This document shows, piece after piece, positions 1,021 through 9,258 of a stretch of 9,258 bases of DNA (position 1 is its first letter; every line of letters starts with the position of its first letter). A program made the position numbers and the translations under genes. This stretch comes from Octopus sinensis (taxonomy: Eukaryota): contig NW_021827997.1 in the NCBI RefSeq assembly GCF_006345805.1, positions 1-9,258 of the forward strand. Reading direction: 5' to 3'. The notes beneath the pieces were generated by a model. It did no database searches, was not told the DNA's origin, and saw nothing but the letters and a program-made list of their open reading frames with translations.

Positions 1021-1233
1021 AGTCCTCCACCTATTGTGGAACAGGAATGTATTTAATGTAAGGAAAAAATCTCAAGTAAAATTTAAGGCTTTTTTAAAAA
1101 ATAAAATTTATATTTTAAATATATAATTTTAGTGGCGTATGAAAATTAATAAATAAAATTTCCTTCCATGAAGCTCAATAGTTTATTGTTGTGCAGTTGG
1201 TTGGTTTGTTCTCGCTCCATAAAAAGAGAAATA

Positions 1234-2458
1234 ATGAAACCACGTGCATACAAAGATAAACTACTCTCTCTCGTTGATGCAAATTATAATGTAATACCAG
1301 TCACTGATTAGCTCCTTATTGGCTATATCTCTGGCATTTAGGTTTTACAAACGGATGAGGTACAGAAGATTCTAGTCAAATTAAAGACTCTAGAGATGAC
1401 CAAAGCTGACCTAGAGGTAAGCTCTACCCATTTTAAATACACCCTCCCCTTCTTAGTGTCGCCCTTACTGGCGACAATTCCTTAAGCAGCGAAAATTTGG
1501 ATTAAAACCAAAATTTGGCGTTGCGCTTTGCGTGTTATTGATTAATGACGCAGTGGTTTTATTAATTATTTTAGGAAACACGACTGGGGAAAATTGTGAA
1601 TAGTATTAGAAGAAATAGCAACGATTCTGAAATTGCCAGCATATCAAAGTCCCTCATAAAGTACTGGCAGGTCAAATTCCTGGCAAATGGGACAAAATCA
1701 ACTGTTGCTGAGAAGAAAATCGATAATTGTCACACTTCAGGTATTTTCTAAGGGTTTAATTGTTAAAATTAGATCGAATGGGTGATATTAAAAAGATAAT
1801 GTCAAAGGAGGCGACTCCTTGTAAGCGTAAACGAATACAGACGACAGCTGAGTTAATTTCTTCGATTGACCACGGGACGGAAAAGTTGATTACTTCTGCT
1901 GATCTGAATTATATTGACCATATCAGTTCAGAGACCTATCGTGAGGATATACACGAACATGTTGTTCCTCATTCTCTGTTGCCAAAATCAAGGAAATCGA
2001 GAAATTGTTCTCCAAATTTAAAAGATAATTCCGAGCGGTCAAAGGGCAGTCTCATTTCCAAAGGGAATGTAAATAATGAGCCAATTTTATTGAAAATCAA
2101 ACTTTCCGACGTTCAAACGGAAATGATTAAAAATTCTTTTAATGTTACTCCGGATAAAAATAATAAAAGGCCGAGAATGGAAAAGAGAAAGAAATCTGAT
2201 CCAGGAGTTTCTCCCAGGACAGAATTTCGTAATTCAATACGGTCTAAATTGCCCACATATGACCGAGATAATCTACCGCAACTAAAGTGGATGAATCCGA
2301 GTATGCCCAGAAATAAGGATGGGAGTTATGATAGTGATGGAAAGTTGCGAGGATGGACTGAGTGTTATCGCCTTCCTTCCCTTGACAATGATGTATGTGT
2401 GATATTTCCGTATTGTGATTTACCACCTGCCCATAAAATTGTTTTTGCTGATGGGTGA
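1234..2458 (+). CDS. MED26: Mediator of RNA polymerase II transcription subunit 26 (four exons, about 327 aa)
   Basis: Exons 1234-1290, 1342-1416, 1575-1740 and 1773-2458 are joined by GT-AG introns of 51, 158 and 32 nt into one open frame. The N-terminus MKPRAYKDKLLSLVDANYNVLQTDEVQKILVKLKTLEMTKADLEETRLGKIVNSIRRNSNDSEIASISKSLIKYWQ matches the MED26 TFIIS-N/LW domain (LEETRLGKLINDVRK...LLRSWQ). The C-terminus DGSYDSDGKLRGWTECYRLPSLDNDVCVIFPYCDL matches the MED26 C-terminal domain (G.YD..G.W..WT.C...ILPY). Confidence 0.9.
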
Positions 2459-2520: not shown

Positions 2521-2840
2521 TCATATTTTCTTTATTTTTATGAGATTGAAGAAAGACTAAATCATTCCTAAATTAAATTGGGTCGTTGATATCAAAAAAC
2601 GGACTCCAGTATTATTTGTGTCTACGTGCAATGCTAGGAATAAATTTGCGAAAAAATCTTTTCTTTATTTCTTCTCCAAATTAAATCTTTGCTAGCTAGG
2701 CAGACAATTGATTTAAAAAAACAAGAATAGAATGGACTGAAGATAATTTAAAGGGTTTGTACATTATTATTAATCTGGCTTCTAGCAAACTAATTGATAA
2801 TCTCATTTACTTTGGTATAATTTTTTAACAAAATTTTATT

Positions 2841-4400
2841 TTATAAAAATAATTCGGCTTCGTTGATATACATATCATAAAATATCCAAGACCCGACGAC
2901 TGTGAAAATGAGAATATCACTTTTTGTGAAATCTGGAATTGTAATTTGTATATTTTTGTTATTCTTGAACTTAATAAAATAGGATTGTCTATCTTCCTTG
3001 AACGGATAAATACTAAAAGTAATTAATTTAGCTGAAAATAACCTTCTTTGGATTAAATATATGAATAATGTTATAACGTTCTGACATAATAAAATATCAT
3101 AGGAAAAGGGAATGTTTAGAATATATTGCATTAAGAATGATTCAAAAGCCTAAAATAATAATAAAAAAATACTTTGAACATTATTGATATCCAAGGAATT
3201 GGTCCTACAGATTTCAGCTAAAATATTTGAAATTTGAAAAAATACTTTGCAGTTTAATATGAAGGGAGTGCAGGCTAGAATCAATAAATATAGATTTATT
3301 GCTAAAAAATATTAAAATCAATAAGTACAATTAAAGATCAATATAAATATCCACGATGTCCAGCTATAATTCGAATAAAATCAGCAAACCTAGTAAATGG
3401 AGTTAGATAGAGTCGAATTATGTCGATTAAAATTTGAACGGGAGTGAAAATTGCTAACATTACGTCAATATACTTTAAATTAAAAAAATTTAATTTCGAA
3501 CTTTATTTTGGTATTGCAATGTTGGTAGTAGAAACTGACGAGAACCATTTTTATGGAAAAAGCTAGAAATCATTTGATAAATTCTATATATTGGAAGAAT
3601 TGCTACGAATTTTTTCCTGAAAGAAATGTTTTTGTTCGATTTAAAAATCTTAAAAATACACAAATAAAAGCAAACATAATACATCGTCCACATGAAACCT
3701 CCGATTTTGAGAATAAACTCAATGTGTGTTGAATAGTACTTCCAATTCCAATAAACAGCAATAATAGAATGTAACATCCATATATCAACTATAAATATAT
3801 TTTAAGTTTAATAACTTGAAAGATTTAGTGGTCCTTCAAAATTCTGACAATTGTTCCAAAAATCCGTCTCGAAACGTTTAGACCAGTCGTTTAAAATAAA
3901 CTTTAAATATATAAAAATGTATTTACGTGGATTATTATTATTAATAACTTGTGATTTAGTTCCTTATAGCTATCGTATTTGTATAATTGGTGTATTTCTG
4001 TTATAACACTTTTTGGAACACCTATAATATAAAATATAGTAAATTACCAATTTCTGAAAGAGTCTTCATAAATGAGTTTACTCTTTGTTTGAATATTAAC
4101 GAAGAGAGCGTAATTGTATTAAAGTTTATCCTTAGTGGCATATATACATATTCTGGACGAATAATCTATTTTTAGTCTTAAAATAAAATATTTTACCAAT
4201 CCTTTGGAAGTATCAGTTTGTTCTTCAATTTGTAAAAATGGAATGTATTCATTGTTTGAATCTCTGATTAAGATTAAATGAAATTTATAATTCTTTTTTG
4301 TAAAATATCTAGCTAACTGTGTAGTTGTATGTTCATTTCTACATTCTATGGTTAATTTAGAAAAATTCTGTCCAAATATAACCACCACTGTAAACACCAC
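2841..4400 (-). CDS. CLPTM1L: Divergent CLPTM1/CLPTM1L-family multi-pass membrane protein (lipid scramblase family), central and C-terminal part; 5' end unresolved
   Basis: Minus-strand exons ~4400-4197, 4165-4048, 4021-3927, 3900-3816, 3788-3502 (probable in-frame intron 3675-3649), 3472-3390, 3363-3329, 3301-3246, 3217-3173, 3149-3043 and 3012-2841 are joined by 23-31 nt GT-AG introns into one stop-free frame. Motif matches: YIPFLQIEE...MPLRINFNTITL (cf. YLPILFIDQ...LPLTVSYDKISL); HFILNDWSKRFETDFWNN (cf. HLLFDFLAFKNDISFWKK); SWTSWIF...PFILNCKLKSVGPIPWISIMFKAFESF (cf. SWYSWLI...PQLFVNYKLKSVAHLPWKAFTYKAFNTF); FIYLIQRSIYP (cf. LVYLYQRWLYP). Confidence 0.82.
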
Positions 4401-4682
4401 TACCGGTACAACAAGAAAAATTAACTCAAAAACCTGATCTTTGCCAAAAAAAGTTTTATTTAAGTTTTATTTGCCCAATTTGAATCAGATCGCCACAATA
4501 AAGTTCAGTCAAAACTAAAACCAAAATGTTAGAACAAACCTAATATGAATTCATTTAAAATATACAGTAAAACCTCTCAAATTTACTGATTTGGATGAAG
4601 AGCAAAAAATTTGCGGAAACATGAACTTACAATATTTATTTAATTTATTAATAAGCATACCGAAAAAACAGCTTTAGTAAAG

Positions 4683-5919: not shown

Positions 5920-6425
5920 TACGATGTCCTCGACTTACATGATGAGGTCCTTAAAACCTTCCCCCCAAAAAAATCAAAAAAAAATTTTCTGCATTTTGGT
6001 TAAAATGAACAACTACGATGTCCTCGACTTACATGATGAGGTCCTTAAAACCTTCCCCCCAAAAAAAATTAAAAAAAATTTTCTGCATTTTGGTTAAAAT
6101 GAACAACTACGATGTCCTCGACTTACATGATGAGGTCCTTAAAACCTTCCCCCCAAAAAAAATTAAAAAAAATTTTCTGCATTTTGGTTAAAATGAACAA
6201 CTACGATGTCCTCGACTTACATGATGAGGTCCTTAAAACCTTCCCCCCAAAAAAAATTAAAAAAAATTTTCTGCATTTTGGTTAAAATGAACAACTACGA
6301 TGTCCTCGACTTACATGATGAGGTCCTTAAAACCTTTCCGCCAAAAAATCAAAAAATTATTTTCTGCATTTGATTAAAATGAACAACGTTAATGTCCTCG
6401 ACATTCATGATGAGGTCCATTAAAA
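5920..6425. repeat. 94-bp tandem repeat, five full copies plus a diverged partial sixth
   Basis: ACGATGTCCTCGACTTACATGATGAGGTCCTTAAAACC recurs at 5921, 6015, 6109, 6203 and 6297 (period 94), with a degenerate copy at ~6391. Confidence 0.97.
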
Positions 6426-7104: not shown

Positions 7105-7349
7105 CCAGTGGTTTGTCTAATCAAGGTCACTAAGCTAAATCTCCGGACTATAAAGGCTCTTAAGCATTATCTTAACTGGCTGTTAAAAAAATTAGACAGG
7201 TTGTTGCCGTGGCGGCAGAGATTTTTTTTGTTTATACTTTTTTACAAATTTTTAAAGTTTTTTTTGTTTTTTCATTTCTTTTGTTTTTAAATTATTTATT
7301 TTTATTTGTTTTTTTTATTTTTTTTGTTATTTTCTACAAATTCAACCGG

Positions 7350-7807
7350 ATTGAATTTTTAAACTCCTTAGATCCCTCTGGAATGCCGAATCATTCTTTA
7401 AAGTTAAAGATAGGCGTTCCAGTGGTTTTATTACGAAATCTTGCGCTACCTAAATTATGCAACGGAACGAGGTTAGTTATCAAAAATTTGATGGCTAACG
7501 TAATAGAGGCGACGATATTCACAGGTAAGTATAGAGGTGAGGATGTTTATATTCCACGAATTCCGATAATTTCTGATGAATTACCATTTAGATTTAAAAG
7601 GTTGCAATTTCCTTTGAGGATGAGTTTTGCAATGACAATAAACAAGGCCCAGGGACAGTCATTAAAGGTAGTGGGTTATTTTTAGAGAGTGAGTGCTTTT
7701 CACATGGACAGCTGTATGTGGGATGCTCGAGGGTAGGCAGAAGAGAAAATTTATTCATATATGCCAAGGAAGGACGGACGACAAACATCGTTTATCAACA
7801 GCGATAG
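7350..7807 (+). pseudogene. Helitron Rep/Hel Pif1-like helicase C-terminal fragment, frameshifted
   Basis: Translation: [30 protein letters not shown]...LCNGTRL...IPRIP...[28 protein letters not shown]. After a 1-nt frameshift near 7676 it continues [21 protein letters not shown]...TTNIVYQQR* (stop 7805-7807). These are the C-terminal helicase motifs; no Rep domain or Walker A is present. Confidence 0.93.
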
Positions 7808-8234
7808 AATAGGGTTACATTAAACCAGGTAGTTTTATACATCTACATAAACTTATAGTTGTTTGATGAAACAGGCCCTCCGCAGGAGCTAGGTCGCGTG
7901 AGCGAAGCGAGCTGCCGAGCTAGTTTTCTATAAACTTGTTCTATAGAGGCTGCGGCTAATAATTTACTGTCAAATTTAGTAAATATATCACTCCAGTCAC
8001 TTTATTCCAATTTGTTATGTAGTACTTCGTGAAATTTATCGAAAAATTAAATTTTTAATTTTAAGGAGCAATCTTACGTAGTAGTGTCCTCAATAATTCA
8101 AATTATTGTATTAATTAAAAATTTCTAAATAATATTTTATTTGTTAAATTTTCTCTATATAATTACTTTAGATTTTAAATAGTAAAATGTAAATTATTTG
8201 AAAACTATAATTTTAAAGCATTAACAAATCCTTC

Positions 8235-8310: not shown

Positions 8311-9258
8311 ATGACACGTTTCGTTTCTCGTGGTGCAAAAAATAAAACTATCAAAAACTCAAAATCTTCTGTGTCTCAAGAGCTTGAACGCAAAGATGAA
8401 ATCCGTATCAAAGATGAGGAGGGGTCACACTCCTCTCAAGTCTCTTTGAACAATCCAAACTGTACTGAGTCTCTTGTCCTCTCGCTGCAGATAAAAAATT
8501 ATATCGATTGGACGAATAAAGTCCTTTAATATTCTAACCAAATCCGAGACTGCACAGAAGGCCCGAATTACTGCCAGGAAGTCTGGGGACTTTATTCTCG
8601 AATTCTCAAATTCTAGTGATAGGGACTCGTTTGTGAATGACTTCGAGTATACAAAACCATTTGGCCAGGACGGCCATTATATTTCTGCGTGCAGTCTGCA
8701 ACCATCGACCGTAGTCTTGAAGGGAATACCATCTTGGGTCTCCGAGGAAGACCTGGATCTTTACCTCAAAGAATTCTCAACCCCGGTTTTACTTTCCAAC
8801 GGTTCTACAAATGGACGGAGTATACCTGTTGGAAAGTTGAGTCTGAATTCGAGGGCAGAAGCCACTTCGCTTGTAAGGATGGGAATCGAAGTGGGTTTTC
8901 AAAAATACGATGCGAATGGTTTAAAAACCCAGCAACAAGATGCTTTCGCTGCCAACAATTTGGTCACATTGCTAACTTCTGCAAAGAAGTGGAAAGATGT
9001 CTTTTCTGTGGTGGTGATCATAATATGAAAATGTGCCCGATTAAAGGAAAAACTGAGAAAAAATGTATAAACTGCGGTCTGAGTGGGCATTTGGCTTGCT
9101 ACGGTGGCTGCTCTTCAGCTAAGGCAGCCACTGCACAACTAAAAAAGCAGCTCAGTGCCAGGGACAGACTGGCCAAAGCAGAACACTCAAAAACTGTATG
9201 GTCAAAAGCGGAGGCCGTTGAATCTGTATGGCGAAAACCCACAATTTCCCGCTGTTTT
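8311..9258 (+). mobile_element. Non-LTR retrotransposon (I/Jockey/R1-like) ORF1 gag-like protein, frameshifted, running off the window end
   Basis: Three consecutive frames join: the 8311 ORF; frame 8495-8905 (RITARKSGDFILEF...VVLKGIPSWVSEEDL...GIEVGFQK); and, after a shift in the A run at ~8901-8905, IRCEWFKNPATR-CFRCQQFGHIANFC-KEVER-CLFCGGDHNMKMC-PIKGKTEKK-CINCGLSGHLACYGGC. These are CX2CX4HX4C, CX2CX3HX4C and CX2CX4HX6C knuckles typical of LINE ORF1. Confidence 0.88.

What the first reader, a model, noticed from the sequence alone, without database searches (positions are those of the whole stretch)
2841..4400. Gene hidden by 10-11 ultra-short introns (23-31 nt) in an animal genome
Seen: GT-AG introns on the minus strand at 4196-4166 (31 nt), 4047-4022 (26), 3926-3901 (26), 3815-3789 (27), 3501-3473 (29), 3389-3364 (26), 3328-3302 (27), 3245-3218 (28), 3172-3150 (23) and 3042-3013 (30), and probably 3675-3649 (27). 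Removing them joins three separate ORFs into one CLPTM1L-like frame. Several donors are weak (GTTATT, GTTCGA, GTTTGC) and no branch-point consensus is evident. Known: such sizes are below the usual animal minimum and occur in reduced parasites such as dicyemids and myxozoans, and MED26 is essentially metazoan. Inference: introns here are defined largely by length, and standard gene finders would miss this gene.
Basis: partly seen in the sequence, partly recalled or inferred. Interest (0 to 1): 0.75.

Follow-up and report, generated by a model that had tools for sequence, protein, structure and literature searches.

The report
Dicyemid CLPTM1L-like gene with tiny introns
Eleven 23-31-base GT-AG segments interrupt a very divergent CLPTM1L-like membrane-protein gene at the intron positions of the host's own CLPTM1L gene, so they are likely shrunken ancestral introns; the DNA likely comes from a dicyemid kidney parasite assembled along with its octopus host, and introns this small are already known as normal for that animal.

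Summary
All 11 segments are GT..AG at the stated places and removing them leaves one open frame; 0 of 200 shuffles allow this. The spliced protein scores 58.6 bits on a CLPTM1L-type profile and 24.9 on a CLPTM1-type one (best shuffle 7.4). Ten introns sit at the same column and phase as introns of the host's long-intron CLPTM1L, the eleventh one column off. The doubtful 3675-3649 intron is among the ten.

The window is a whole 9.3-kb unplaced contig in an assembly labelled octopus. It is likely Dicyema DNA: it shares a repeat with a scaffold whose aldolase is 95% identical to that of D. acuticephalum, and the host has its own MED26, CLPTM1 and CLPTM1L. Dicyemid introns of about 26 nt are published, and this scan noted them before on other pieces of this genome.

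New here: an unannotated third CLPTM1-family gene (about 21% identity, PQ changed to PF). Two read sets leave the window at 4261, so 4262-4400 is probably not the true 5' end. No RNA covered these junctions. Interest is low.

The parts
2841..4261 (-). Read-supported body of a divergent CLPTM1L-type gene (about 370 codons in 12 exons or exon parts; stop TAA 2843-2841); true 5' part not identified
   Evidence: (X1 and X2 contigs cover it)
4166..4196 (-). Intron 1, 31 nt, phase 0; one column from a host CLPTM1L phase-0 intron, next to an alignment gap
4022..4047 (-). Intron 2, 26 nt, phase 1; same column and phase as host and C8460 CLPTM1L
3901..3926 (-). Intron 3, 26 nt, phase 0; shared position
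3789..3815 (-). Intron 4, 27 nt, phase 1; shared position
3649..3675 (-). Intron 5, 27 nt, phase 0, in frame without a stop; shared with host CLPTM1L, absent from the C8460 copy
3473..3501 (-). Intron 6, 29 nt, phase 0; shared position
3364..3389 (-). Intron 7, 26 nt, phase 2; shared position
3302..3328 (-). Intron 8, 27 nt, phase 1; shared position
3218..3245 (-). Intron 9, 28 nt, phase 0; shared position; a 2-nt deletion at 3223 in X1 lies inside it
3150..3172 (-). Intron 10, 23 nt, phase 0; shared position
3013..3042 (-). Intron 11, 30 nt, phase 2; shared position
4258..4261 (.). 4-nt overlap where two read-supported loci meet: X1 and X2 gene contigs stop matching at 4261; C126, C11053 and an X2 contig hold 4258-4470 but continue differently
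   Evidence: table 8
4262..4470 (-). Open-frame piece joined in frame to the gene; frameshifted copies on C126 and C11053; no CLPTM1L homology above chance; probably not the native 5' exon (unresolved)
4469..4565 (-). Decayed fragment of an ABC1/COQ8-type kinase gene with its own 26-nt micro-intron; source gene on C8460
1153..2458 (+). Neighbouring MED26 gene, convergent with the CLPTM1L-like gene; introns 1417-1574 (158 nt) and 1741-1772 (32 nt) seen spliced in run X4

Best explanation
The 11 short GT-AG segments are likely ordinary spliceosomal introns, inherited at ancestral CLPTM1L positions and shrunk to 23-31 nt, in a very divergent second CLPTM1L gene that likely belongs to a dicyemid (Dicyema) parasite co-assembled with its octopus host. 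Shown: the segments, the open frame, the CLPTM1L-type homology, the shared intron positions, and Dicyema-like DNA in the assembly. Inferred: the spliceosome takes a weak GT donor and joins it to the first AG beyond a floor of about 21-22 nt after a short U/A-rich stretch. Inferred: the gene arose by DNA duplication of CLPTM1L, after which each copy lost a different intron. Inferred: the product is a multipass ER membrane protein of the CLPTM1L fold and would most likely work as a lipid scramblase or partner subunit. Inferred: the window's join at 4258-4261 is a rearranged or chimeric form that replaced the real 5' part.
For: Open frame and null test. Profile scores: 24.5 bits against best shuffle 3.9 and best unspliced ORF 4.0; 58.6 L-type against 24.9 CLPTM1-type. 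11 of the 12 host CLPTM1L introns in the homologous span are present, 10 at the same column and phase; the host's are 129-6397 nt. Tree groups it with the two L-type proteins, 100/99, on a very long branch. Aldolase on scaffold C8901 is 343 of 361 residues identical to Dicyema acuticephalum, with five 25-28-nt introns. The window shares a repeat with C8901 and an ABC1 fragment with compact scaffold C8460. None of the scored matches of three window stretches lies on a contig numbered below 67 (41, 57 and 40 matches). Host MED26, CLPTM1L and CLPTM1 lie on C8, C18 and C20. A 32-nt intron of the neighbouring gene is seen spliced. First AG at 21 nt or more is used in 11 of 11 window introns; first AG at 22 nt or more in 31 of 34 others (five of the 34 come from a near-identical second aldolase copy and one of those is an alignment artefact).
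Against: No spliced read shows these 11 junctions. No protein of the window itself was matched to a named Dicyema protein, so the taxon link is indirect. Repeat searches scored only 40 candidates each (of 77, 124 and 720). Identity to either CLPTM1L is only about 21% with strong FYMINK bias, and the PQ motif reads PF. Of 7 listed exonic variants in 2844-4261, 4 are missense and 3 silent (40 of 349 rows were shown), which does not show strong constraint. Against the chimera reading of the 5' end: the 68 codons of 4263-4466 are open (p=0.001 by shuffling) and in frame, and the 4 differences there shared by X1 and X2 are all at third codon positions.
Confidence: 0.88

Rival explanations
1. The introns were real but the gene is now a recently dead pseudogene, at least in the window's haplotype, cut off from its promoter and start codon by a rearrangement among transposon-derived pieces.
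For: No ATG reachable with micro-introns. Upstream DNA is a mosaic of repeats and a decayed ABC1 fragment. 4 of 7 listed exonic variants are missense. PQ motif altered.
Against: About 370 codons and 22 splice ends are intact at 21% identity to the paralogue. A contig from a second organism and study (X2) covers 2765-4261 with 106 other letters and 28 gaps, about the same divergence as the MED26 neighbour. X1 carries 790 further bases upstream that could hold the real start.
Confidence: 0.2
2. The window shows the native 5' arrangement: 4262-4470 is the gene's real upstream exon (perhaps with one more intron near 4264-4317), and the read sets carry a different, rearranged form.
For: The piece is open and in frame (p=0.001). 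An AG at 4265-4264 sits near where the host has a phase-2 intron. A local profile alignment runs into 4361-4262.
Against: Contigs of two organisms and two studies leave the window at the same base, 4261. The piece adds no more profile score than its codon-shuffled versions (21 of 40 score as high) and scores -1.2 bits alone. Copies on C126 and C11053 continue into other DNA, on C126 towards a class II tRNA synthetase gene.
Confidence: 0.3
3. The locus is octopus DNA, or DNA of another cobiont (myxozoan, ciliate, apicomplexan), so the micro-introns would be new for that lineage.
For: The database label of the neighbouring protein is Octopus sinensis. The gene is more AT-rich (28% GC in exons) than the C8460 genes appear by eye.
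Against: The host's own copies have 129-14130-nt introns with strong donors. Repeats and a gene fragment tie the window to scaffolds that carry Dicyema-like genes. Intron positions are those of an animal CLPTM1L, the code is standard, and the MED26 C-terminus matches the host's (E=5e-5).
Confidence: 0.05

Closest known systems
Dicyemid ultra-short spliceosomal introns (Dicyema acuticephalum PMC2222250; Dicyema sp. PMC6543705; D. japonicum PMC6736024, PMC13644364)
   Same: Size (median 27 nt here; published mean 26.2 and median 27), GT-AG ends, reduced donor and acceptor signals, conserved ancestral positions.
   Different: Nothing in kind. These introns are more AT-rich (9% GC inside) and end in a tighter T run (T at -6 and -5 in 10 of 11) than the 34 other introns tallied. 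Density is high (11 in 1.4 kb).
CLPTM1L (PF05602; human ER GlcN-PI lipid scramblase of the PQ-loop family, PMC9169118)
   Same: Profile match over about 335 residues, 11 shared intron positions, conserved C-terminal KLKSV..PW..FKA and Y..QR..YP elements, several hydrophobic segments.
   Different: Only about 21% identical to host and parasite CLPTM1L, which are 42% identical to each other. PQ reads PF. One intron lost with about 10 extra residues there. C-terminal extension of about 35 residues. N-terminus not found.
Myxobolid myxozoan introns (PMC13644364)
   Same: Convergent 22-27-nt median introns with reduced splice motifs in an animal parasite.
   Different: Different phylum; the evidence here points to Dicyema.

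Membership tests
Dicyemid micro-introns | Length about 21-35 nt with GT..AG ends | tested here: met
   23-31 nt, 11 of 11 GT..AG
Dicyemid micro-introns | Positions conserved with other bilaterians | tested here: met
   10 of 11 same column and phase as host CLPTM1L, 1 one column off
Dicyemid micro-introns | Reduced 5' and 3' splice motifs | tested here: met
   Donor +3 A6/T5, +5 G in 3 of 11; compare PMC13644364 results section
Dicyemid micro-introns | Removed from mRNA | tested here: inconclusive
   No spliced contig over this gene; a 32-nt intron of the neighbour is spliced in X4
Dicyemid micro-introns | DNA belongs to a dicyemid | tested here: inconclusive
   Strong but indirect: shared repeat and gene fragment with scaffolds carrying a Dicyema-like aldolase and compact genes; no named Dicyema match for a window protein
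CLPTM1 family (PF05602) | Profile match of the whole protein | tested here: met
   Own profile from 12 long hits (11 checked as PF05602): 24.5 bits, E=5e-10 at Z=1, best of 200 shuffles 3.9. The Pfam model itself was run only on unspliced pieces, with no hit
CLPTM1L subfamily | CLPTM1L rather than CLPTM1 exon structure and profile preference | tested here: met
   Introns match host C18 and C8460:467k genes, not C20 and C8460:630k genes; 58.6 vs 24.9 bits
CLPTM1L subfamily | PQ motif in TM6 (PMC9169118) | tested here: not met
   The aligned position reads PF where host and C8460 copies read PQ
CLPTM1L subfamily | Eight TM segments with N-terminal TM1 and luminal domain | tested here: inconclusive
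   Hydropathy scan finds 3 segments in the supported part against 5-6 in the partial references; N-terminus missing; no structure model made
CLPTM1L subfamily | ER location and lipid scramblase activity | not testable with these tools
   Needs expression and liposome or complementation assays

The most novel reading that the evidence does not exclude
A parasite that cut its gene set to about 5,000 keeps a second, extremely fast-evolving CLPTM1L (PQ changed to PF) as a functional, specialised lipid scramblase or partner subunit, hidden from all annotation by 11 micro-introns that are spliced by a simple rule: GT, a floor of about 22 nt, then the first AG.
Probability: 0.3. Interest if true: 0.4.

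Novelty: new member of a known kind. Interest (0 to 1): 0.18.

Why it matters
The intron size is not news for dicyemids. The case is a clean example of 11 ancestral introns shrinking about a hundredfold in place, with host and parasite genes side by side in one assembly. It also warns that proteins labelled octopus in public databases (such as the MED26 next door) can be parasite proteins, and that divergent parasite genes are invisible to ordinary gene finders and six-frame family searches. A retained divergent CLPTM1L paralogue could be of minor interest for GPI-anchor biology in a reduced parasite.

Tried and rejected
Sequencing-run search listed no RNA holder. Run X4, which has spliced contigs over MED26, gave almost no cover of the gene, and X3 (same sample as X1) gave only short stray matches to the locus; neither is used as evidence. 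Pfam on unspliced pieces gave no CLPTM1 hit, only sub-threshold Tmp39, P63C and PI3K_rbd hits, rejected as noise. Protein search with 3502-3789 found nothing among proteins of 169 aa or more (weak evidence). No solved structure matched a 55-aa CLPTM1 exon. The Atlas look-up gave no result. No ATG path with 20-36-nt introns; 62 paths with introns up to 130 nt exist but run through repeat and ABC1-fragment DNA and were rejected. A twelfth intron at the host's column 428 was sought by eye in 3648-3502; the GT..AG candidates (23 and 44 nt) break the frame, so it is taken as lost. A 30-nt GA..AG segment (4293-4264) and a 54-nt GT..AG segment (4317-4264) were considered as a further intron; both are in frame and lie in the doubtful piece, so they are left open. 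A weak genome hit for the 4263-4454 piece (C13496, E=0.13) showed no CLPTM1L homology. The Med26_C family search did not find the window's MED26. No clear branch-point consensus: A peaks mildly at -8 (55% window, 47% others). No structure prediction was run. Paper searches for a report of this paralogue (CLPTM1L + dicyem, 0 papers) and for dicyemid DNA in octopus assemblies (listings and abstract starts only, plus passages of one paper) showed none; most subscription papers and all supplements were not seen.

Full report
Observation. All 11 segments begin GT and end AG at the coordinates given, and removing them gives one stop-free frame from 4466 to TAA at 2843-2841. A dynamic-programming test asked whether 4466-2844 can be read without a stop using only 20-35-nt GT..AG introns. 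The real minus strand can (at least 8 introns). None of 200 dinucleotide shuffles can, nor the plus strand, nor 6 control stretch/strand combinations. Intron interiors are 9% GC and exons 28% (p=7e-12). Among the 40 difference rows shown of 349, 11 fall in 2844-4261: 4 in introns, 3 silent, 4 missense, none making a stop or touching a GT or AG. A 2-nt deletion at 3223 falls inside intron 9.

Protein. Unspliced pieces give no CLPTM1 hit, and a six-frame PF05602 search of the genome missed the gene. I built a profile from the 12 hits of 400 aa or more among 150 listed (11 of them checked as PF05602). The 11-intron product scores 24.5 bits, the 10-intron product 18.1, the best of 200 shuffles 3.9 and the best unspliced ORF 4.0. 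Four-sequence subfamily profiles that exclude the window protein give 58.6 bits (CLPTM1L-type) against 24.9 (CLPTM1-type), best shuffles 7.4 and 4.0. A 14-row tree groups it with the two L-type proteins (100/99) but on a branch of length 10 with biased composition, so the tree alone is weak. Identity to either CLPTM1L is about 21%. The PQ motif described for human CLPTM1L (PMC9169118, passages) reads PF.

Intron ancestry. The assembly holds a CLPTM1L on 55-Mb contig C18 with introns of 129-6397 nt and a CLPTM1 on 33-Mb contig C20. It also holds compact CLPTM1 and CLPTM1L genes on 670-kb scaffold C8460 with 23-34-nt introns (one further 18-nt prediction at the edge of the alignment was dropped). 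In the span homologous to the window gene the host CLPTM1L has 12 introns. The window gene has 11 of them: 10 at the same column and phase, one a column off beside a gap. It keeps one intron (3675-3649) that the C8460 copy lacks, and lacks one that the C8460 copy keeps. This suggests DNA-level duplication followed by independent intron loss (inference). A profile-guided spliced alignment recovered 8 of the 11 introns exactly without being told them.

Source organism. The window is the whole of contig C4468 in a 2.72-Gb, 13,516-contig assembly. The neighbouring MED26 protein is labelled Octopus sinensis by its source. An aldolase exon on scaffold C8901 has Dicyema acuticephalum as best hit (93%; all other listed hits 63% or less). 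The whole gene matches at 343 of 361 residues with five 25-28-nt introns. The window shares a repeat with C8901 and a decayed ABC1-kinase fragment, including its 26-nt intron, with C8460. Three window stretches gave 41, 57 and 40 matches, none on a contig numbered below 67, though only 40 candidates were scored each time. The host's MED26 is on C8, and the window's is the only match to its own protein. The window is therefore likely Dicyema DNA. The link is indirect, since no window protein matched a named Dicyema protein.

Splicing mechanism. Donors are reduced to GT plus A or T; acceptors are a short T run then (T/A)AG. All 11 introns use the first AG at least 21 nt from the donor; AGs at 11 and 20 nt are skipped. 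In 34 other introns of the compact scaffolds, 31 use the first AG at 22 nt or more, and many AGs at 21 nt or less are skipped (five come from a near-identical second aldolase, one of them an artefact). These introns are predicted by homology, not RNA. A length floor followed by first-AG choice is the likely rule (inference). It is not absolute: run X4 shows MED26 introns of 158 and 32 nt spliced. That 32-nt joint is the only direct evidence of micro-intron splicing on this contig.

The 5' end. No ATG is reachable with 20-36-nt introns. An X1 contig (depth 131 against 141 for the single-copy block) matches 4074-4261 and goes on for 790 unlike bases. An X2 contig from another organism and study matches 2765-4261 and goes on for 104 unlike bases. 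Another X2 contig and scaffolds C126 and C11053 hold 4258-4462/4470 but continue into other DNA. The two sides overlap by 4 nt. The piece adds no CLPTM1L signal beyond codon-shuffled versions (21 of 40 as high), and its copies are frameshifted. Against this, the piece is open for 68 codons (p=0.001), in frame, and its 4 differences shared by X1 and X2 are at third positions. I put about 65-70% on the window being a rearranged or chimeric join, and leave the true start unidentified.

What is known. Dicyema introns average 26.2 nt (n=16; PMC2222250, passages). The median is 27 nt in Dicyema sp. (PMC6543705, passages) and the mean 38 nt in D. japonicum, with 5,012 genes (PMC6736024, passages). 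A 2026 comparison finds such introns only in myxobolids and D. japonicum, with reduced motifs and weak upstream A residues (PMC13644364, abstract and first part of Results). Earlier notes of this scan report dicyemid DNA with micro-introns on other pieces of this genome; none lies near this window or names this gene. I found no paper holding both CLPTM1L and dicyemid. Supplements were not read.

Verdict. The feature is real, correctly read and already known in kind. The only new items are an unannotated, very divergent third CLPTM1-family gene and a doubtful 5' join in the assembly. Interest 0.18.

Noticed in passing
window 1153-2458 (+): MED26 gene labelled as an octopus protein in public databases (P0001), though it is likely the parasite's; the host has its own on C8. 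X4 shows the 158- and 32-nt introns spliced, but one X4 contig reads through most of the annotated 51-nt first intron (1291-1341).
   Followed up: partly
window 7176-7940 (+): Pif1-helicase fragment (PF21530) followed by a GC-rich hairpin-like stretch and CTAG, like a Helitron 3' end (recalled motif). Copies at 97-99% identity on many unplaced scaffolds (40 scored of 720 candidates) suggest recent activity.
   Followed up: partly
window 4469-4565; C126 and C11053: A decayed ABC1/COQ8 kinase fragment with its micro-intron sits in a mosaic with repeats at three places, which looks like gene-fragment capture by a mobile element. The window lacks about 300 nt (C126) or 890 nt (C11053) at 4469/4470.
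   Followed up: partly
window 5920-6425: 94-nt tandem repeat, 5.4 copies, 95% matches, also present at C126, C11053 and C9510.
   Followed up: no
window 8495-9258 (+): Two overlapping frames, one with a zinc knuckle (PF00098, E=0.0014): likely a frameshifted gag-like ORF1 of a retroelement, cut by the contig end.
   Followed up: no
G000:C8901:281132-282311 and 302565-303744: Two near-identical compact aldolase genes about 21 kb apart; one appears to carry frameshifts.
   Followed up: partly
G000:C8460:630456-632411 (L043): All 10 host CLPTM1 introns that were mapped have a counterpart in phase, and at or near the same column, in the parasite-type CLPTM1, shrunk from 178-14130 nt to 23-34 nt.
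   Followed up: partly
window 3648-3502: Where the host has an intron that this gene lacks, the exon is about 10 codons (30 nt, one micro-intron length) longer; no splice ends remain, so an exonised intron is only a guess.
   Followed up: partly
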